From assembly GCA_964462205.1 (NCBI GenBank), contig CAYWWW010000002.1, forward strand, positions 71,223 through 135,222: a DNA stretch of 64,000 nucleotides, read 5' to 3'. Position 1 is the first letter of the stretch; each line of letters opens with the position of its first letter. This stretch comes from an uncultured Cardiobacteriales bacterium. Its GTDB lineage: Bacteria; Pseudomonadota; Gammaproteobacteria; CAYWWW01. Under the pieces are notes generated by a model. That model had not been told where the DNA came from. It saw nothing but the letters and a program-made list of their open reading frames with translations, and did not search any database. Made by a program: the position numbers and the translations under genes. Below, in pieces: positions 9,067 through 19,178 of the stretch.

Positions 9067-9100
9067 CTGCGTGATTTTTTATCACGCAGTTTCTTTTTTT
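9067..9100 (+). terminator. intrinsic terminator after the RND operon
   Basis: perfect 9-bp stem CTGCGTGAT/ATCACGCAG with TTTTT loop followed by a T-run (tttcttttttt). Confidence 0.7.
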
Positions 9101-9118
9101 ACCTTTGACTATAGCCTT

Positions 9119-11089
9119 ATGCCTATTTCTACCCTTGAACTCTTAGCGCCAGCAAAAAATCTTGCCATTGGTAAAGCTGCTATTACCCACGGTGCCGATG
9201 CCGTTTATATCGGTGGACCGGCTTTCAGCGCACGTTATCAAGCTAATAATAGTATTGAAGAAATTGCTGAACTTGCCACCTTCGCACATCGTTATCACGC
9301 CAAAATTTTTGTTGCCTTGAATACCATTTTTCATGACGAGGAATTAGAAGCCGTTGCGCAGTTAATTGATCAGCTCTTTCAAGCGGAAGTGGATGCTTTA
9401 ATTATTCAAGATATGGCTATTTTGGAATTAAATCTGCCACCTATTGCACTTCATGCTTCTACCCAATGCGATATTCGCACCCCAGCCAAAGCCAAATTTT
9501 TAGCCGAAGTTGGCTTATCACAATTGGTATTGGCGCGGGAATTATCGCTGGTGGAAATTGCAGAAACGCAGCAAGTTATTGGTGATAAAGCGGTTTTAGA
9601 ATATTTTATTCACGGGGCATTATGTGTAGCCTTTTCGGGGCAATGTTATATGTCCCATGCCGAAACTGGGCGAAGCGCCAATCGTGGCGATTGTTCGCAA
9701 GCCTGTCGGCTACCTTATACCTTAAAAAATGCCGCTGGTGAGATTATTGCTTTTGATAAACATTTGTTATCTATGAAAGACAATGATCAAACCAATAATT
9801 TAGAAGCCTTGGTCAATGCTGGTATTCGTTCTTTTAAGATTGAAGGCCGTTACAAAGATATCAATTATGTCAAAAATAATACCGCGCATTATCGGCAGCA
9901 TCTGGATGCGATTTTAGCAGCGCGTTCTGACTTAAAACCGGCCAGCAGCGGACGTGTGGACTATGCTTTTGTTCCTGATCCGCAAAAAACTTTTCAACGC
10001 GGCAGCACCGATTATTTCGCGCATGGTCGTCAAGAAAATAGCATTGCGGCCTTTGATTCGCCGAAGTTTTTAGGCATTCCGGTGGCAGAAATTATCAGCT
10101 TAAAAAATAATTGTTTAGGCGTGCAGTTAAAGCCGGAAATTACCTTACGCAATGGCGATGGCGTGAGTTTTTTGTATCGTCGCGAAAGTAAAGGCTTTAC
10201 CATCAATGCTATTCGCGAAGCGCATCTGCCCAAGTGGGGGAAAATGATTTGGTTGACAGCCAATGATAACAGCATTTTCAATGCGTTGGATGCCAATGCC
10301 TTGGCCGGTCAAGTGCTCTATCGTAATCGTGATCATGCTTGGGAAGAAAGCCTGAAACAAGCCTCAGCGGAACGTCGTTTAGGGGTGCGTTTTTTATTGC
10401 AAGAAAATCAAAATGGCTTGATTTTGCAAGCAATAGATGAAGATAATAACATCGCAATACAAAAACTAGCGGTAACAAATAAAGCACGACAGCCAGAAAA
10501 ATTAGCGGAGCAATGGCAGGCGCAATTATCGCGTTTGGGGGACTCATTATTTTATTGGCAGGGCTTAGATTTATCTTTGAATTATCAATGGTTTGTGACA
10601 GTTTCGCAGATGAATCAACTGCGTCGCGATATTTTGACAGCTTTACTGGCAGAGCGCTTACGTCGTTATATCCGCCCGCAACGGCAGCCAGCGCTCGAAC
10701 CTGCGCCGGTCTATCCTTTGGAGCAGCTTTCCTATTTAGCTAATGTTTATAATAATTTAGCGCGAAAATTTTATGCGCGTCATGGGGTCAAAATAATGGA
10801 TCCGGCCTTTGAAGCACATCAAACCGATCAAGAAGTCAGCCTGATGATCACTAAACATTGCTTACGTTTTTCCTTTCAACTTTGTCCGAAACAAGCCAAA
10901 GGTATCACTGGTGTGCAAGGGCAAATTCGTGCTGAACCCCTTTTTTTAAGCAATGGCCAAGAGCATTACACCTTGACCTTTGATTGTCGTCCTTGTGAGA
11001 TGCATATTCGTGGAAAAATCAAGAAAAACATCATTAAGCAATTGCCGCCAGGGTCACAACCGATCAAGTTTTTTCCGCAGAAAAGCTAA
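9119..11089 (+). CDS. U32 family peptidase-like protein, long form (RlhA/YdcP-like putative rRNA hydroxylase)
   Basis: N-terminus MPISTLELLAPAKNLAIGKAAITHGADAVYIGG matches the U32 N-terminal domain; 657 aa from the ATG at 9119 is close to E. coli YdcP length as recalled; ORF-track start at 9071 lies inside the terminator hairpin so the start was moved to the first ATG. Confidence 0.7.
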   Translation: MPISTLELLAPAKNLAIGKAAITHGADAVYIGGPAFSARYQANNSIEEIAELATFAHRYHAKIFVALNTIFHDEELEAVAQLIDQLFQAEVDALIIQDMAILELNLPPIALHASTQCDIRTPAKAKFLAEVGLSQLVLARELSLVEIAETQQVIGDKAVLEYFIHGALCVAFSGQCYMSHAETGRSANRGDCSQACRLPYTLKNAAGEIIAFDKHLLSMKDNDQTNNLEALVNAGIRSFKIEGRYKDINYVKNNTAHYRQHLDAILAARSDLKPASSGRVDYAFVPDPQKTFQRGSTDYFAHGRQENSIAAFDSPKFLGIPVAEIISLKNNCLGVQLKPEITLRNGDGVSFLYRRESKGFTINAIREAHLPKWGKMIWLTANDNSIFNALDANALAGQVLYRNRDHAWEESLKQASAERRLGVRFLLQENQNGLILQAIDEDNNIAIQKLAVTNKARQPEKLAEQWQAQLSRLGDSLFYWQGLDLSLNYQWFVTVSQMNQLRRDILTALLAERLRRYIRPQRQPALEPAPVYPLEQLSYLANVYNNLARKFYARHGVKIMDPAFEAHQTDQEVSLMITKHCLRFSFQLCPKQAKGITGVQGQIRAEPLFLSNGQEHYTLTFDCRPCEMHIRGKIKKNIIKQLPPGSQPIKFFPQKS

Positions 11090-12442: not shown

Positions 12443-14233
12443 TCAAACAGAGTCTAGGTGCGTCTGCAACCAAAGTTCCAGTAAGGCATTATGCCAAAGT
12501 TTGCTGCCTTGCAATTTTGTGTAATGCGCTTGCGGCTTGGCCAGCAATTTAGCCAGGTAATCCGGGTTAAATAAGCCGCGTTCGCGGCAGGCGGTAGATA
12601 ATAAAATATCCCGCATAAAATCAAAAAACTCGCCTTCAACATATTTCAAGGCCGGCACCGGAAAATAGCCTTTGGGACGGTCAATCACGCTGCTTGGCAG
12701 ATATTTTCGGGCGATGTTTTTTAGTATTCCCTTGCCGCCTTCAGCCAGTTTTAGGTCTTCTGGCATGGCCGCTGCCCATTCCACCACGTTTTTATCCAAA
12801 AACGGCATCCGCGCCTCCAAACCATGCGCCATGGTCATATTGTCCACACGCTTGACCGGATCATCCACGATGAGCGTCGTGACATCTAAACGCAGCACTT
12901 GATCCAAAAAACTATCGGCATTTTCATCTAATAATCGCTCGCCAAGCCATTGATAAACAAAATTTTCACCCTGAAATTTTGGCAATAACATCGCAAGCAC
13001 TTCCAAAGGCTCACGGTCGCAATAAAACGGTGCAAAACAAGCAACAGGATGATTTTTCCAGGAATTTTGCGCCGCACAAGCCGCCATTTGTGGATACCAA
13101 AAATAACCGGCAAACACCTCATCGGCACCTTGGCCGCTTTGCACGACTTTGACCTGCTTGGCAACCGCTTCGGCCAAGAGATAAAAAGCCACGGCATCTT
13201 GACCAACCATGGGTTCGGCCATTGCTGCCACTGCTTCGGGCAAACGCGGCAAAACTTGGCGATTGTCCAGGAAAATTTTTTCATGCTGGGTTTTATATTG
13301 ATCAACCACTTGATCTGAATAAAAAAATTCATCACCAGCTTCTTCATTTTTACTTTCAAAACCGATGCTAAAAGTATGCACTGGCCGGGTTTGCGCCAGC
13401 ATGGCGGTGATTAAACTCGAATCGAGGCCACCGGACAGCAAAATGCCGACCGGCACATCAGCGGCGCTATCACGACGTAAAATAGCCAATTGTAAACGTT
13501 TTTCCAGTTCTGCCTGCCACTCGCCGGCGCTCATCGCAGCTTCGGGACGCTTAGCGGTGAGTTGCCAATAGCGTTTAACCGTCAATTGGCCATTTTTAAG
13601 CCAAGCGCAATGTGCTGGTGGTAACTTTTTGATCCCTTTGATAATCGTCTCTGGTGCTGGTACGACCCCATGCAGCATCAAGTGAAAGGGCAAGGCGGTG
13701 GTTGCTAAATCCTTGGCTATTTTTCCGCTGGCAAGCAGCGCTTGCGTATTAGAAGCAAAATAAAAATCGCTGCCGACTTGGCTGTAATACAAGGGTTTAA
13801 TGCCGAATAAATCCCGAGCTAAAAATAATTTTTCCTCGGCTAAGTTCCAGATAGCAAAAGCATACATTCCTAAAAAGCGCGACAAACAGTCCTCACCCCA
13901 AGCATGAAAGGCTTTGCTTATCACCTCGGTGTCGCCGCTGCTAAAAAATTGGTAGCCGAGTTTTTCCAATTCTTGCCGCAATTCCCGATAGTTATAAATG
14001 GTGCCATTAAAAACAATGGCCAATTGCAAGGCATTGTCCACCATCGGCTGATGTGCGCGACTCGATAAGTCAATGATGGATAAGCGGCGATGCGCCAAAG
14101 TTATCCTTTGGTGCTGAAATATCCCCTGGCCATCGGGACCCCGCTGCGCCAAGGCGTTGAGCATTCGTTGTAAACTGCGCAAGGTCTCGGTCTGGTTATG
14201 ATCGGCTGAAAAAATACCGGCGATGCCGCACAT
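12443..14233 (-). CDS. asparagine synthase (glutamine-hydrolysing) family amidotransferase
   Basis: N-terminal MCGIAGIF with Cys2 nucleophile; PP-loop ILLSGGLDSS; 596 aa. Confidence 0.75.
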   Translation of the reverse strand: MCGIAGIFSADHNQTETLRSLQRMLNALAQRGPDGQGIFQHQRITLAHRRLSIIDLSSRAHQPMVDNALQLAIVFNGTIYNYRELRQELEKLGYQFFSSGDTEVISKAFHAWGEDCLSRFLGMYAFAIWNLAEEKLFLARDLFGIKPLYYSQVGSDFYFASNTQALLASGKIAKDLATTALPFHLMLHGVVPAPETIIKGIKKLPPAHCAWLKNGQLTVKRYWQLTAKRPEAAMSAGEWQAELEKRLQLAILRRDSAADVPVGILLSGGLDSSLITAMLAQTRPVHTFSIGFESKNEEAGDEFFYSDQVVDQYKTQHEKIFLDNRQVLPRLPEAVAAMAEPMVGQDAVAFYLLAEAVAKQVKVVQSGQGADEVFAGYFWYPQMAACAAQNSWKNHPVACFAPFYCDREPLEVLAMLLPKFQGENFVYQWLGERLLDENADSFLDQVLRLDVTTLIVDDPVKRVDNMTMAHGLEARMPFLDKNVVEWAAAMPEDLKLAEGGKGILKNIARKYLPSSVIDRPKGYFPVPALKYVEGEFFDFMRDILLSTACRERGLFNPDYLAKLLAKPQAHYTKLQGSKLWHNALLELWLQTHLDSV

Positions 14234-15212: not shown

Positions 15213-15252
15213 CAAAAGCCTTAACCAAACCCTTTTTTTATCAAATACAAAA

Positions 15253-15284
15253 GGCATCTGAACGGATTCAGATGCCTTTTTTTT
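15253..15284. terminator. bidirectional intrinsic terminator between bolA-like and the convergent peptidase gene
   Basis: perfect 10-bp inverted repeat GGCATCTGAA/TTCAGATGCC with CGGA loop, A-run upstream and T8 downstream. Confidence 0.8.
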
Positions 15285-15302: not shown

Positions 15303-16190
15303 TTAGGGTTTTTGTACTTGAAAACTTGCGATATTAGAAACTTGCTTATCACTTTTTACAACTTGAACCTGCCAGGGTGCGGGTGTAGTGCCAACATTGA
15401 TTTCATAAGCTAAGGTTTGTGCATCCAAAAATAAGGGAACGCGATCATTAAAATCCGCATAGCCCACCATCTTAAAATTTAACTTGTCCGTTTCAGCAAA
15501 ATTTTCGCCAAAAAGAATTAACCATTGCCGTTCACCAGAGGCTTTAGTAACTAGCGGATTTGGATAAATAAAAGAAATTTCTGGTGCCGGCTGACTTGCG
15601 CTTTCTACGACTTGGTTAAAACGACGTGGTAAATAATTGTTATCTCTGGCTAAAACCCGATGCGTAACGCCATCAATGCTTCCTGAGGTGGTGGATTCGT
15701 AGAGCATCATGCTGCCATCGCTATTGTAATAATGAAATAACCGCACATGACTCCCTGCTTTATTGACAATATCGCCAGCTTTTAAGTCCGACCAATTGAT
15801 TTGCTTAGAAATATTTGGCAGGCTGCGGGTGCTATATTTGCTTGAGGTTTCCCAGACCCGGCTGACAAAACCCGAGCAGTCAATACCGGCAAAATCGGTG
15901 CGAATATGCGTGGAATCATGCAAGGTTTTTTTGTCGTTGCCAGCGATACGGCCAGCATTAACTCGACTTAAAAATTCAGAAACGCTATTAAACCCACCCC
16001 AGTTATAGGCCATGCCGGTAACTTTTTGACCAATGCTGCGGTTATTCCAATAACTATTGGCATTACCGGATTTTACCGTCCATTGGACATTGGCAAAGGT
16101 TTCGGCGTTATCAATAATTTTTTGCCGATCAATGGCTGGTGCAGAAAGGGTGAAGCAAAAAATAATCAGAAAAAGTATAAAACGCATCAT
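15303..16190 (-). CDS. secreted papain-fold cysteine peptidase/amidase-like protein (NlpC/P60 or CHAP-like)
   Basis: start trimmed to ATGATG at 16190/16187 preceded by GGAG; signal peptide MMRFILFLIIFCFTLSAPA; catalytic-looking Cys in AGIDCSGFVSRVW and downstream His in AGSHVRLF. Confidence 0.55.
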   Translation of the reverse strand: MMRFILFLIIFCFTLSAPAIDRQKIIDNAETFANVQWTVKSGNANSYWNNRSIGQKVTGMAYNWGGFNSVSEFLSRVNAGRIAGNDKKTLHDSTHIRTDFAGIDCSGFVSRVWETSSKYSTRSLPNISKQINWSDLKAGDIVNKAGSHVRLFHYYNSDGSMMLYESTTSGSIDGVTHRVLARDNNYLPRRFNQVVESASQPAPEISFIYPNPLVTKASGERQWLILFGENFAETDKLNFKMVGYADFNDRVPLFLDAQTLAYEINVGTTPAPWQVQVVKSDKQVSNIASFQVQKP

Positions 16191-16242
16191 AAACTCCGAC
16201 ATGAAAGAAATAAAAGTTGAAGAAAAAACTTTAAGAAACAAA

Positions 16243-17709
16243 TCAACGCCATTGCAGCACTTCGGCACCGTTTGGCGTGGTGATCAATTGTTGCAATTGA
16301 CCATTTTTATCGCTTAATAATTTGCGATAACTGGTGGTGTGATAGTCATTCGGCAAGGCTTTTTCAGCGATAATTTTTTGCTTTTCCAAGTCTATTTCCA
16401 AGACTTTTAAGCCGACATAACCATCGGGATAGACATATTCTGCTTCCAATAACAAGTTACCAGCGGCAGTTTTGCCAATGGGACCGACAACGCCAAGGTC
16501 GCCAGCAGGGTTGAATGGTAACTGACCTTTGGGTTGACCTTCACTATCAAGTAACAACAAATTGACTTCTCTCGGATTTTTCCAAGAAGTGCGGATAAAA
16601 TCCTCACCAAAAGGATAGCCTGGCAATATCGGTTGTGGGTTGGTTAAAAGATTTTTACCTTTAGCAACCGCTTGACATTGTTGTAGTTTGCAAACATAGG
16701 TTTGACCATTTTCTTGATAAAAACCTTGGCGATAACCTTCGCTTTTGGGTAAGTCCTCTAAAGAAAAGCGTTGCTGATTCATCTGAATACCCGCAGCTTG
16801 CAAGGTAAGCAATTGATCACCAAGAGTAATCATATCTTCTACTTGCGTGTCAAAAGTTAAATTTTCCAACCAGTTGCCATTGCGATCATATTTTTTCACG
16901 GTTAAGCCATCGGCATCTAAAAGATAGCGATGGCCAGCGGCATCTACGGTAAAGGTTTGTGCGCCAACGGTTTCTAGTTCTTCACCCTGTTGTAACTCTA
17001 GGTTTTCTTTATCTTTTCCCCAAGGAACACTGAGTGCTGCGCTTAATTCTGGTAATTGATTTTGTAAGGCTTGCGGCAAACGTTGTTGCCAGTATTGACG
17101 ACGTTTTTCTAAATCAGTTTTTTCAGCAGAAAAGTTTTTTGCTTCAGTAGCTTGTGGTTCAGGACAGGGGCTTTCAGTGGAGAGGCAAATAGACAAATCA
17201 AGCAGCAAAGTTAAAAATTCTTGGCAGTTATCAGAAAAAATTGGGGTAATGATTTTTCCTTCGGCAAAAATAGCTTCGCCTTGATAGACTGGACAAGGGA
17301 GGTCTTTTTCATAATGTTTTGTTTTTATAAATTTTTCCATCAATAATTGACCTTTACCTTGCGGTTGACCAAAGGCAAAATCACCTTGATAGCGCATTTG
17401 AAAAGCATCGTCAGTGACCGTTAAATTGCCTTCACCATGCGCACGACCGATTTGAAATGTACCTTGAAAATGCCGGAAAGGTTCGGCCAATAGCGGGTCT
17501 TGTCGAGTGAGATCACCTTTGCCGCTGGCGAAACCGGCGCTGAATTGGCCGCGATAATGCCAAATGGCGAGAATACGCTCTTGATTTTGCAAAGTTAAAC
17601 GGTATTCTCCGATACCTTCTTGACAATCGCCAGAAAGGCATTGCGCAGCTAAGAGCGGTGAAAAAAATAAAGCGATCAGTGGCAAGGCTATGAATGATAA
17701 ATTAAACAT
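16243..17709 (-). CDS. secreted MORN-repeat protein, unknown function
   Basis: signal peptide MFNLSFIALPLIALFFSPLLAA; three MORN-like repeats (YRGQFSAGFASGKGDL, FQGTFQIGRAHGEGNL, YQGDFAFGQPQGKGQL) then about 330 aa without recognisable domain. Confidence 0.55.
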   Translation of the reverse strand: MFNLSFIALPLIALFFSPLLAAQCLSGDCQEGIGEYRLTLQNQERILAIWHYRGQFSAGFASGKGDLTRQDPLLAEPFRHFQGTFQIGRAHGEGNLTVTDDAFQMRYQGDFAFGQPQGKGQLLMEKFIKTKHYEKDLPCPVYQGEAIFAEGKIITPIFSDNCQEFLTLLLDLSICLSTESPCPEPQATEAKNFSAEKTDLEKRRQYWQQRLPQALQNQLPELSAALSVPWGKDKENLELQQGEELETVGAQTFTVDAAGHRYLLDADGLTVKKYDRNGNWLENLTFDTQVEDMITLGDQLLTLQAAGIQMNQQRFSLEDLPKSEGYRQGFYQENGQTYVCKLQQCQAVAKGKNLLTNPQPILPGYPFGEDFIRTSWKNPREVNLLLLDSEGQPKGQLPFNPAGDLGVVGPIGKTAAGNLLLEAEYVYPDGYVGLKVLEIDLEKQKIIAEKALPNDYHTTSYRKLLSDKNGQLQQLITTPNGAEVLQWR

Positions 17710-17840
17710 GGGTCTTGACCTCTCAGTTGAAAGCGCTGATTATAAAAATCTTTTTCTAAAAGTTACCGCCACTGGTCAGGCTTTTTCTACCGTCTGTCGT
17801 TCAAGCAACTTGTCAACACTTTTTATCTTTTGAGGCAGTT

Positions 17841-19178
17841 ATGACTGAACTTTTATCCCCCGCCGGCACTTTGAAAAATATGCGTTATGCCTTTGCTTAC
17901 GGTGCCGACGCTGTTTATGCCGGTCAACCCCGTTATTCGTTGCGGGTGCGCAATAATGATTTTTTGAACGATAATTTAACCATCGGCATTCAAGAAGCAC
18001 ACACACAAGGTAAGCGGTTTTATCTCACCTTAAATGGCATTCCGCACAACAATAAAACCAAGACCTTTCTTCGTGACTTGGAAGAAATCATGGACTTAAA
18101 ACCCGATGGCGTGATTATGGCCGATCCTGGGTTAATTGCCTTGGTGCGTGAAAAATATCCCGAATTGCCGGTGCATTTATCGGTGCAAATGAATACGGTC
18201 AATAGTTTGTCGGTGAAGTTTTGGCAAAGTTTAGGCTTAACTCGGGTGATTTTATCCCGCGAACTCGGGCTAGATGAAATTACTGAAATTAAAAGTGATT
18301 GTGCCGATATGGAACTCGAAGTTTTTGTCCACGGTGCTTTGTGTATTGCTTATTCAGGACGTTGTTTATTATCAGGTTATTTTAACCATCGTGATCCCAA
18401 TCAAGGTGCCTGTACCAATGCTTGTCGTTGGGAATATCAAACCGTGGCCGCCGAAGAAAATTTAACCGGTGAAGTCTTACCGATTTCTCGCCAGGCATTG
18501 GAAGCCATGGAGGCAATACCTTTGCAAAATCAAGCACAAGTAGTCAAACGGCATCCGGCTGCTGATAAAGTTTATTTATTGCAGGAAGCGCAGCGTCCGG
18601 GGGAATATTTTCCGATTTTAGAAGATGAGCATGGAACCTATATCATGAATTCCAAAGACTTGCGCGCTGTGCAGCATGTAGATGCCTTAGTAAAAATGGG
18701 TATGGATTGCTTAAAAATTGAAGGTCGTACCAAATCGCATTACTACGTCGCCCGCACCGCGCAGGTCTATCGGCAAGCCATTGACGATGCAAAGGCCGAA
18801 CGACCATTTAATCCTAAGTTGCTTTGGGAACTAGAAAATTTGGCCAATCGTGGTTATACCGAAGGTTTTTATGATCGGCATCCGCCGAATCATTATCAAA
18901 ATTATCAGCAGGATATTTCCCGTAGCAGTCAACAGCAATTTGTCGCTGAAGTGCTTGATAGTCATGGAGACTGGTTGACCGTTGACGTAAAAAATAAATT
19001 TGCGGTTGGCGATACATTACAATGGTTATCCCCGTTGGGTAACGTGGATTTTGTGCTGACAGCCATGGAAAATCTCCACGGTGAAAAAATGGCTTTAGCA
19101 CCCGGTGCTGGTTATCGGGTACGCATCCCAATGCCCGCGCCTTTTCATCCCTATGCTTTGTTATTGCGTTATTTCTAA
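17841..19178 (+). CDS. trhP: U32 family peptidase-like protein, short form (YegQ/TrhP-like tRNA hydroxylation protein)
   Basis: 445 aa; N-terminus ELLSPAGTLKNMRYAFAYGADAVYAGQPRYSLRVRNN and internal EAQRPGEY..EDEHGTYIMNSKDLRA closely follow E. coli YegQ as recalled. Confidence 0.7.
   Translation: MTELLSPAGTLKNMRYAFAYGADAVYAGQPRYSLRVRNNDFLNDNLTIGIQEAHTQGKRFYLTLNGIPHNNKTKTFLRDLEEIMDLKPDGVIMADPGLIALVREKYPELPVHLSVQMNTVNSLSVKFWQSLGLTRVILSRELGLDEITEIKSDCADMELEVFVHGALCIAYSGRCLLSGYFNHRDPNQGACTNACRWEYQTVAAEENLTGEVLPISRQALEAMEAIPLQNQAQVVKRHPAADKVYLLQEAQRPGEYFPILEDEHGTYIMNSKDLRAVQHVDALVKMGMDCLKIEGRTKSHYYVARTAQVYRQAIDDAKAERPFNPKLLWELENLANRGYTEGFYDRHPPNHYQNYQQDISRSSQQQFVAEVLDSHGDWLTVDVKNKFAVGDTLQWLSPLGNVDFVLTAMENLHGEKMALAPGAGYRVRIPMPAPFHPYALLLRYF

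What the first reader, a model, noticed from the sequence alone, without database searches (positions are those of the whole stretch)
15303..17709. Co-oriented secreted MORN-repeat protein and papain-fold cysteine peptidase with no obvious homologous context
Between the bolA-like terminator and trhP, two minus-strand genes lie 52 bp apart. The first encodes a 488-aa secreted protein with three N-terminal MORN-like repeats and a long unassigned C-terminal region. The second encodes a secreted protein with an NlpC/P60- or CHAP-like catalytic Cys (AGIDCSGFVSRVW) and His (GSHVRLF) plus a 130-aa C-terminal extension. Such a pairing could be a cell-wall remodelling or inter-bacterial effector module; the function cannot be assigned from sequence.
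Basis: partly seen in the sequence, partly recalled or inferred. Interest (0 to 1): 0.55.

Follow-up and report, generated by a model that had tools for sequence, protein, structure and literature searches.

The report
Propeller partner plus NlpC/P60 hydrolase pair
The two genes are real and form the split version of an uncharacterised module found in many bacterial phyla, in which a six-bladed propeller protein is encoded next to, or fused with, a divergent NlpC/P60 cysteine hydrolase that is probably a secreted cell-wall-cutting enzyme and its helper subunit.

Summary
Both minus-strand ORFs exist as described. They lie 52 nt apart with no terminator between them, and a hairpin terminator follows the second.

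- **Gene A (488 aa):** No Pfam model detects the propeller, which I call PD.

The new result concerns the pairing. I fetched 80 genome loci from more than 12 phyla using only the peptidase domain.
- In 29 loci the PD propeller is fused N-terminally to the peptidase.
- In 19 loci PD is the gene immediately upstream.
- PD always comes first, and no third gene is conserved.
- PD-anchored loci show the reverse link.

The pair is therefore one conserved functional unit sitting in a core housekeeping chromosomal region of a deep-branching gammaproteobacterium.

The most likely function is a periplasmic or secreted two-subunit peptidoglycan-peptide hydrolase in which the propeller recognises substrate or acts as a scaffold. 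A gating or inhibitor role for the propeller (like Tsi1), or a non-peptidoglycan substrate, remain open. I rate it a new variant of a known kind, of moderate interest.

The parts
16243..17709 (-). Gene A CDS (488 aa): signal peptide + MORN repeats + linker + six-bladed propeller (PD)
   Evidence: ORF. Homologues P0027-29. AF2 model with pLDDT 87.5.
17719..17724 (-). Shine-Dalgarno-like GAGAGG, 9 nt upstream of gene A's ATG
   Evidence: Read from the sequence.
17644..17709 (-). Gene A predicted Sec signal peptide (res 1-22, cleavage after LAA; not a lipobox)
   Evidence: Sequence. The segment is a low-pLDDT N-terminal helix in the model. Read by eye only.
17242..17640 (-). Gene A MORN-repeat beta-sheet module (res ~24-156), with conserved Cys pairs
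17047..17241 (-). Gene A helical/flexible linker (res ~157-221), replaced by N/S/T-rich low complexity in the L002 homologue
   Evidence: Alignment. pLDDT of 55-64.
16246..17046 (-). Gene A partner domain PD: six-bladed NHL-type beta-propeller (res 222-488)
16191..16242 (-). 52-nt intergenic spacer with SD-like GGAG (16194-16197); no terminator
15303..16190 (-). Gene B CDS (295 aa; 294 aa from the ATG at 16187): signal peptide + NlpC/P60-fold domain + IPT/TIG
   Evidence: AF2 model with pLDDT 90.7.
16134..16190 (-). Gene B predicted Sec signal peptide (cleavage after SAPA)
   Evidence: Sequence. Low pLDDT over residues 1-20. Read by eye only.
15603..16133 (-). Gene B NlpC/P60-fold catalytic domain (res ~19-195 of the 294-aa form)
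15876..15878 (-). Codon of catalytic Cys104 (TGC)
   Evidence: Invariant in 26 homologues. Aligns with the MepS catalytic Cys. It is the only Cys in the mature protein.
15747..15749 (-). Codon of catalytic His147 (CAT)
   Evidence: Invariant. Aligns with the His of the MepS motif HVGIY.
15696..15698 (-). Codon of Glu164 (GAA), the predicted third triad residue
   Evidence: Conserved in at least 90% of homologues. YESTTSG lines up with FVHASTSSG of MepS; this is my own comparison of the sequences and an inference.
15306..15581 (-). Gene B C-terminal IPT/TIG Ig-like domain (res ~203-294)
15249..15280 (-). Intrinsic-terminator hairpin ending the A-B unit (bidirectional with the convergent bolA gene)

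Best explanation
Genes A and B are co-transcribed and exported by Sec. Together they form a two-subunit envelope hydrolase.

- **Gene B is the catalytic subunit.** It is a divergent NlpC/P60 (C40-like) cysteine hydrolase with a Cys104-His147-Glu164 triad. It most likely cleaves an amide bond in peptidoglycan stem peptides, such as gamma-D-Glu-mDAP or a neighbouring bond. Its IPT/TIG Ig domain serves as an extra binding or spacer module.
- **Gene A is the non-catalytic partner.** Its six-bladed NHL-type propeller is the same domain that sits directly N-terminal to the peptidase in single-chain homologues. It docks to or works beside the peptidase and supplies substrate or envelope recognition. 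The MORN sheet adds a lineage-specific anchoring surface.

Shown here: the folds, the intact triad, the operon-like layout, and the conserved fusion or adjacency. Inferred: physical complex formation, peptidoglycan as the substrate, and a targeting rather than gating role for the propeller.
For: Folds and catalytic residues:
- The gene A C-terminus is a six-bladed NHL-type propeller.

Rosetta-stone linkage:
- Of 80 loci fetched with the peptidase domain alone, 29 have PD fused N-terminally and 19 have PD as the gene immediately upstream. PD always precedes the peptidase.
- 47 of the 51 PD-hit ORFs, out of 3354 ORFs in those loci, are the peptidase ORF itself or its immediate upstream neighbour.
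- The N-terminal extension of more distant fusions is homologous to PD blades 5-6 (hhalign probability 82%, E=1e-5).
- In the reverse direction, stand-alone PD genes in L088, L089 and L090 have the peptidase directly downstream. L084 and L087 have it nearby, separated by toxin-antitoxin insertions.
- No third gene is conserved.

Local layout and export:
- The pair is kept in L001, L002 and L003 down to 51%/33% identity.
- Local signals are a 52-nt gap with an SD, no internal terminator, and a terminator after gene B.
- Gene A has 8 conserved Cys, while mature gene B has a single Cys, the nucleophile. This fits an oxidising compartment.
- Fused homologues in Bacteroidota and Ignavibacteria end in T9SS sorting domains, so the module works outside the cytoplasm.

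PD looks like a general recognition module: it also occurs fused to an alpha/beta-hydrolase, a C-type lectin and Lcl_C. This fits a substrate- or surface-binding role better than a peptidase-specific inhibitor role.
Against: - No biochemical data exist for any member of either family; literature searches found nothing.
- The peptidase subfamily scores below Pfam's NlpC/P60 threshold (18.6 vs 23 bits), and only 6 of 26 relatives hit it even weakly. Its specificity may therefore differ from known DL-endopeptidases.
- The third triad residue is Glu rather than the His of MepS.
- The peptidase occurs without PD in Verrucomicrobiota, so PD is not needed for basic function.
- In L084, PD is intact while the peptidase is truncated, which suggests PD can act alone.
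- A propeller-like protein is known to inhibit an NlpC/P60 enzyme (Tsi1-Tse1, PMC3391265), so adjacency alone cannot separate a helper from an inhibitor.
- I could not run a complex prediction.
Confidence: 0.5

Rival explanations
1. The propeller is a built-in regulator or inhibitor. It binds the peptidase and occludes or gates its active site until a signal, a proteolytic event or a binding partner releases it. This would be analogous in action to Tsi1 on Tse1, IseA on LytE, or the RipA pro-segment. The pair would then be an autolysin with its safety catch.
For: - A periplasmic peptidoglycan hydrolase carrying its own Sec signal needs restraint.
- Tsi1, a partial beta-propeller, blocks the NlpC/P60-like Tse1 (PMC3391265).
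- LytE-IseA and MepS-NlpI complexes were among the structural neighbours.
- The strictly conserved order PD then peptidase, and a linker of about 42 aa in fusions, resemble an N-terminal pro-domain arrangement.
- Blades 5-6, next to the peptidase, are the best-conserved part of PD across distant homologues.
Against: - PD is also fused to unrelated modules (alpha/beta-hydrolase, lectin, WD40, Lcl_C).
- In L084, PD is intact while the peptidase is decayed.
- The peptidase exists without PD in about 14 Verrucomicrobiota loci.
- A 270-aa propeller would be an unusually large pro-domain.
Confidence: 0.2
2. The module acts on something other than peptidoglycan. Candidates are a secreted or surface protein, a lipoprotein, or a gamma-glutamyl or other amide-linked exopolymer. 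Alternatively, the NlpC/P60 domain could work as an acyltransferase or transglutaminase-type enzyme. The propeller would bind that substrate or be a second enzyme.
For: - The NlpC/P60 superfamily is known to include amidases and acyltransferases with non-peptidoglycan substrates.
- The subfamily is divergent and has a 35-aa insertion between the YNWGG motif and the Cys.
- PD keeps many invariant polar residues: EGYGQG, E..E(R), PNDY..T.YKK.
Against: - The closest structures by a clear margin are peptidoglycan DL-endopeptidases for gene B and non-enzymatic NHL domains for PD.
Confidence: 0.2
3. The pair is an inter-bacterial toxin and immunity pair. Gene B would be a delivered cell-wall toxin, and gene A the periplasmic immunity protein protecting the producer.
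For: - There is a formal resemblance to Tse1/Tsi1.
- Secreted NlpC/P60 enzymes can attack competitors' peptidoglycan, for example PnpA (PMC7860986).
- Many homologues occur in predatory or epibiotic lineages such as Bdellovibrio, Myxococcota and Bradymonadales.
Against: - The two domains are one polypeptide in 29 of 80 loci, which does not fit a toxin and its immunity protein.
- Gene B has a Sec signal, unlike T6SS effectors.
- No T6SS, contact-dependent inhibition or mobile-element genes occur anywhere in the 64-kb window, which holds only housekeeping genes.
- The locus is syntenic in L001.
- PADLOC and PHROGs gave nothing relevant.
Confidence: 0.05
4. The two genes are merely neighbours with unrelated functions.
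For: None beyond the 52-nt gap, which does not by itself prove co-transcription.
Against: - Fusion or adjacency occurs in 48 of 80 independent loci across more than 12 phyla, and the link holds in the reverse direction.
- PD homologues are rare overall: 263 of 1.84 billion representatives.
Confidence: 0.02

Closest known systems
NlpC/P60 (MEROPS C40) peptidoglycan DL-endopeptidases: E. coli MepS/Spr, B. subtilis LytE/CwlO, E. faecium SagA, B. cereus YkfC
   Different: - It scores below the Pfam PF00877 threshold.
- The third triad residue is Glu, not His.
- There is an insertion of about 35 aa between YNWGG and the Cys.
- The accessory domains are an IPT/TIG domain and a dedicated NHL-type propeller, instead of SH3b, LysM or coiled-coil domains.
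- No activity data exist.
PnpA of Photobacterium damselae subsp. piscicida (secreted NlpC/P60, PDB 6sqx; PMC7860986)
   Same: Both are Sec-exported NlpC/P60 enzymes of a gammaproteobacterium with non-catalytic accessory domains. PnpA's section headings report specificity for the gamma-D-Glu-mDAP bond and activity on other species' peptidoglycan.
   Different: - PnpA is a single chain. By my recollection it carries SH3b-type domains; I did not read that section.
- It has no propeller partner.
Tse1-Tsi1 (Tae1-Tai1) T6SS amidase effector and immunity pair of P. aeruginosa (PMC3391265)
   Same: An NlpC/P60-like hydrolase is encoded next to a periplasmic all-beta, propeller-like protein that binds it.
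   Different: - Tsi1 is a partial three-sheet propeller, not a six-bladed NHL domain.
- Tse1 lacks a signal peptide and is delivered by a T6SS.
- Tse1 and Tsi1 are never fused.
- No T6SS genes are present here.
NHL-repeat six-bladed propellers (Brat, Mei-P26, TRIM71; bacterial PknD extracellular sensor domain 1rwi)
   Different: - No Pfam NHL hit for the window protein, and only weak hits in 4 of 34 relatives.
- PD has its own invariant motifs: WG...QFGLQ.GEE.E, EGYGQG, a C-x4-C hairpin, PGYP, and LPNDYYTTVYKK.
- It is associated with a peptidase rather than with a kinase or a RING domain.
MORN-repeat proteins (Pfam PF02493; T. brucei MORN1 6t4r)
   Same: The repeat motif Y.G.f..G...G.G is present and forms an elongated antiparallel sheet.
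   Different: Here the repeats sit on a Sec-exported, Cys-rich bacterial protein as a lineage-specific N-terminal add-on. They are present in only a few PD proteins: the gene A clade and P0046.

Membership tests
NlpC/P60 superfamily (Pfam PF00877, clan Peptidase_CA; MEROPS C40) | Papain-like alpha+beta fold with the nucleophile Cys at the N-terminus of a helix | tested here: met
NlpC/P60 superfamily (Pfam PF00877, clan Peptidase_CA; MEROPS C40) | Conserved Cys-His-polar catalytic triad | tested here: met
   C104 and H147 are invariant and E164 is conserved in at least 90% of 26 homologues. The Cys and His motifs align with those of MepS. The role of E164 as third residue is inferred from sequence register with His131 of MepS.
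NlpC/P60 superfamily (Pfam PF00877, clan Peptidase_CA; MEROPS C40) | Sequence score at or above Pfam's gathering threshold (23 bits) | tested here: not met
   18.6 bits, E=0.0018. Only 6 of 26 relatives match, all weakly. The NCBIfam MepS equivalog scores 21 bits against a 186-bit cut-off. This is a superfamily member by fold and motifs, but not a member of the curated family model.
NlpC/P60 superfamily (Pfam PF00877, clan Peptidase_CA; MEROPS C40) | Hydrolysis of peptidoglycan stem-peptide bonds | not testable with these tools
   This needs a muropeptide or sacculus assay.
MORN repeat (PF02493) | Repeat motif scoring above the gathering threshold, and a MORN-type beta-hairpin sheet | tested here: met
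NHL-repeat six-bladed beta-propeller (PF01436, beta-propeller clan) | Six-bladed propeller fold closest to NHL domains | tested here: met
NHL-repeat six-bladed beta-propeller (PF01436, beta-propeller clan) | Pfam NHL repeat detected in the sequence | tested here: not met
   No NHL hit for gene A at E<=1. Weak NHL, SBBP or SGL hits occur in 4, 3 and 2 of 34 relatives. In a profile search, long multi-repeat proteins match only PD positions ~28-63.
IPT/TIG Ig-like domain (PF01833) | Ig-like beta-sandwich of the IPT/TIG type | tested here: inconclusive
T6SS amidase effector/immunity pair (Tae/Tai) | Effector without a Sec signal, delivered by a T6SS and encoded near T6SS, VgrG, Hcp or PAAR genes | tested here: not met
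   Gene B has an N-terminal signal-peptide-like segment. All large ORFs of the 64-kb window are housekeeping genes. The L001 neighbourhood is also housekeeping.
T6SS amidase effector/immunity pair (Tae/Tai) | Toxin and immunity are always separate polypeptides | tested here: not met
   PD and peptidase are fused in 29 of 80 loci.
Conserved PD-peptidase module (defined here) | PD-type propeller encoded immediately upstream of, or fused N-terminally to, the YNWGG...DCSGFVS..W...HV.L...YE peptidase subfamily | tested here: met
   In the window, PD is at 16246-17046 and the peptidase at 15603-16133, on the same strand with a 52-nt gap. The same arrangement occurs in 48 of 80 loci and in L001-L003 and L088-L090.

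The most novel reading that the evidence does not exclude
The PD propeller is not a passive binding domain. It would be a dedicated, co-evolving partner that switches the peptidase on or off, or presents a specific non-self substrate. That would make PD-peptidase a previously unrecognised and widespread class of regulated extracellular lytic enzyme. Such enzymes would be used in many phyla, exported by T9SS in Bacteroidota and Ignavibacteria and by Sec elsewhere, and common in predatory and epibiotic lineages. The MORN-bearing split form here would be a periplasmic variant.
Probability: 0.2. Interest if true: 0.6.

Novelty: new variant of a known kind. Interest (0 to 1): 0.42.

Why it matters
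NlpC/P60 hydrolases shape, recycle and attack bacterial cell walls, and how each one is targeted or restrained is usually the open question. This work has three consequences.

- **A defined partner domain.** The evidence defines a propeller domain family with no Pfam model. It is genetically locked to one divergent NlpC/P60 subfamily across more than a dozen phyla, as either a fusion or an adjacent gene.
- **A testable hypothesis.** This turns two "hypothetical proteins" into a specific proposal: a two-subunit hydrolase in which the propeller recognises substrate or gates activity.
- **Experimental and annotation routes.** Cultured organisms are available for testing. Rhizobium phaseoli and Rhizobium sp. 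carry fusions, and Akkermansia and Luteolibacter carry PD-less forms. Both domains could be added to domain databases, which would improve annotation of hundreds of proteins.

It does not overturn any current concept.

Tried and rejected
- **First hhalign test.** A 4-sequence PD profile against the N-terminal extensions of distant peptidase fusions was not significant (probability 2.5%). It became supportive only with the 34-sequence profile (82%, E=1e-5).
- **Search for a third conserved gene.** All-vs-all clustering of the 83 loci found only PD, the peptidase, and overlapping-frame shadows of the peptidase.
- **Defence and phage libraries.** PADLOC gave nothing. PHROGs gave only a MORN-region hit to an unknown-function family.
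- **NCBIfam.** It gave only a far sub-threshold MepS hit.
- **Metagenome scan anchored on PD.** I replaced it with look-ups of individual PD proteins.
- **Blocked resources.** Anantharaman & Aravind 2003 is not held in the library.
- **Literature.** Searches for an NlpC/P60 plus NHL or propeller association found no description of this module.
- **Lipoprotein reading of gene A.** Rejected, because Gln precedes Cys24, so there is no lipobox.
- **Frameshifted-fusion reading.** Rejected, because gene A ends exactly where stand-alone PD proteins end, gene B starts with its own signal peptide, and the split is conserved in L001-L003 and 19 other loci.
- **Horizontal-island reading.** Rejected. GC content is 0.40-0.44 across the pair against 0.43-0.47 in the flanks, the locus is syntenic in L001, and its neighbours are housekeeping genes.
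Full report
**Observation**

The region holds two minus-strand ORFs exactly as reported.
- Gene A is 16243..17709 (488 aa).
- Gene B is an open frame 15303..16268. Its likely start is the ATG at 16190 (295 aa), preceded by GGAG at 16197-16194. A second ATG at 16187 gives the 294-aa database form P0001.
- The A-stop to B-start gap is 52 nt.
- No terminator-like site lies between the genes. A 14-bp-stem hairpin follows gene B at 15249-15280, shared with the convergent bolA gene.
- GC content shows no island signature.
- Both N-termini are hydrophobic and end in AxA. This is my reading by eye, as no signal-peptide predictor was available.

**Gene B**

- Pfam's NlpC/P60 model matches only below threshold (18.6 vs 23 bits). 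NCBIfam's MepS model is far below its cut-off.
- A search of 5.8 billion proteins gave 26 homologues.
- In their alignment, D103-C104-S105 and H147 are invariant and E164 is conserved in at least 90%.
- A profile of this alignment finds MepS/Spr in the PDB (E=2e-5), with GIDCSGFV and HV aligned to the MepS catalytic Cys and His.
- By sequence register, YESTTSG corresponds to FVHASTSSG of MepS, so E164 is the likely third triad residue. This is an inference.
- The AF2 model is confident (pLDDT 90.7).
- Mature gene B has a single Cys, the nucleophile.

**Gene A**

- MORN passes Pfam's threshold. Nothing else matches.
- Only three close homologues exist. A fourth, in L002, shares the whole architecture, with eight conserved cysteines.
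- I searched a profile of the C-terminal 267 residues (which I call PD) against 1.84 billion representatives. It found 263 proteins.
  - Some are stand-alone secreted proteins of about 300-340 aa.
  - Some are fusions to an alpha/beta-hydrolase, C-type lectin, WD40, Lcl_C or MORN.
  - Some are long repeat proteins that match only one blade-like stretch.
- With these as the alignment, AF2 gave pLDDT 87.5.
- Pfam does not detect PD. Only weak NHL, SBBP or SGL hits occur in a few relatives.

**The link between the two**

- The pair is syntenic in L001 (79%/71% identity, between trhP and bolA), identical in L003, and kept in L002 at 51%/33% identity with a 12-nt gap.
- I fetched 80 genome loci using only the peptidase motif and scanned all their ORFs with PD and peptidase HMMs.

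| Arrangement | Loci (of 80) |
|---|---|
| PD fused N-terminally to the peptidase (median linker 42 aa) | 29 |
| PD is the gene immediately upstream (often overlapping or 4-36 nt away) | 19 |
| PD copies elsewhere in the locus | 1 |
| Unassigned N-terminal extension of 250 aa or more | 9 |
| No PD (mostly proteins of about 250 aa from Verrucomicrobiota) | 22 |

- PD always precedes the peptidase.
- 47 of the 51 PD-hit ORFs, out of 3354 ORFs, are the peptidase ORF or its upstream neighbour.
- The carriers span Bacteroidota, Ignavibacteriota, Calditrichota, Zixibacteria, Marinimicrobia, Chloroflexota, Myxococcota, Bdellovibrionota-like lineages, Desulfobacterota, Alpha- and Gammaproteobacteria, Actinomycetota and candidate phyla.
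- The N-terminal extensions of a more distant fused group are homologous to PD blades 5-6 (hhalign 82%, E=1e-5).
- No third gene is conserved.
- The link holds in the reverse direction.
  - PD-anchored loci L088, L089 and L090 have the peptidase directly downstream.
  - L087 has it 0.9 kb away, across a toxin-antitoxin pair.
  - L084 has a truncated remnant after a RelE/HTH insertion.
  - Only the short lectin-PD contigs show none.
- Fused forms in Bacteroidota and Ignavibacteria end in T9SS sorting domains.

**Context**

Every large ORF in the 64-kb window is a housekeeping gene. Examples are RND efflux, TrhP, an NAGGN amidotransferase, SodB, BolA, PrmB, RNase E/G, PlsX, FabH, UvrC, QueA, RpoN, RapZ, PyrD and RelA. 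There are no secretion-system, phage or mobile genes. Outside L001, TrhP's best named relatives are only about 65% identical (Thiothrix, Thiocaldithrix, Halothiobacillaceae, Methylosarcina). The host is therefore a poorly sampled gammaproteobacterium.

**Interpretation**

Fusion in some genomes and adjacency in others is classic Rosetta-stone evidence that the propeller and the peptidase act together.

The best-supported reading (about 0.5) is a Sec-exported two-subunit hydrolase. Gene B would cut peptidoglycan stem peptides, and gene A's propeller would give substrate or envelope recognition. The MORN and IPT/TIG domains would be lineage-specific extra binding modules. PD's occurrence with other hydrolase and adhesin modules favours a recognition role.

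| Rival reading | Confidence | Main point |
|---|---|---|
| Propeller gates or inhibits the peptidase | about 0.2 | Tsi1 is a partial propeller that blocks the NlpC/P60-like Tse1 (PMC3391265) |
| Non-peptidoglycan substrate, or an enzymatic propeller | about 0.2 | The subfamily is divergent and PD keeps many invariant polar residues |
| Toxin/immunity pair | about 0.05 | Argued against by the fusions, the signal peptide and the housekeeping context |
| Chance neighbours | less than 0.02 | Argued against by the co-occurrence counts |

The substrate, the physical complex and the direction of regulation are all inferred, not shown.

**Comparison with what is known, and novelty**

Gene B is a member of the NlpC/P60 superfamily by fold and triad, but it fails the curated Pfam family threshold. 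Gene A combines a bona fide MORN segment with an NHL-type propeller that no curated model detects. I found no description of an NlpC/P60-propeller module in the literature. The closest functional precedent for a secreted gammaproteobacterial NlpC/P60 enzyme is PnpA (PMC7860986).

I rate the finding a new variant of a known kind. The enzyme class is familiar, but it comes with a previously unrecognised, phylogenetically widespread dedicated partner domain. It is of moderate interest.

Noticed in passing
window 9071-11089 (+): This is a 672-aa ORF whose first ~220 residues match U32 peptidases (TrhP/UbiU-like), while the remaining ~450 aa are unassigned. It is a second U32 paralogue, 6.7 kb from trhP.
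   Followed up: no
window 12443-14233 (-): The asparagine-synthase-like gene is an equivalog-level match to N-acetylglutaminylglutamine amidotransferase (TIGR03104, 847 bits), an osmoprotectant-pathway enzyme. I did not look for its usual partner gene.
   Followed up: no
L084 178-2964 (JGI 3300028549): A MORN-PD protein (P0046) is followed by a RelE/HTH toxin-antitoxin pair. After that comes a 109-aa ORF covering only the first 79 positions of the peptidase domain, stopping before the catalytic Cys. It looks like a decayed peptidase next to an intact propeller gene.
   Followed up: partly
L087 1306-6592 (ENA ERZ23498358): A protein combining CAP, Thioredoxin_7 and a peptidase domain lies 0.9 kb upstream of an alpha/beta-hydrolase-PD-Lcl_C protein (P0043), separated by a UPF0175/DUF3368 pair. 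A second Lcl_C protein is nearby.
   Followed up: partly
L064 1573-7956 (Zixiibacteriota MAG): Four PD-like ORFs surround a single 887-aa peptidase ORF. These could be paralogue expansion or a fragmented assembly.
   Followed up: no
L032, L033, L036, L037, L044, L045, L047, L048, L056, L069, L074, L075, L077, L082: Verrucomicrobiota, including Akkermansia muciniphila and Luteolibacter, carry a stand-alone peptidase of this subfamily (about 230-340 aa) with no propeller partner detected.
   Followed up: partly
P0036, P0037, P0041, P0042, P0043 (one search hits): The PD propeller is also fused to a C-type lectin, an alpha/beta-hydrolase, WD40 and Lcl_C (DUF1566) modules. Several of these genes sit among toxin-antitoxin genes.
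   Followed up: partly
window 17332-17473 (gene A res 79-126): The MORN region matches phage protein family phrog_7324, of unknown function, at E=3.8e-7.
   Followed up: no
window 17841-19178 (+): The protein search with TrhP did not return an identical entry, even though genes A and B of the same genome are in that database from an NCBI contig of 253 kb. The nearest hit after L001 (92%) is only 66% identical.
   Followed up: no
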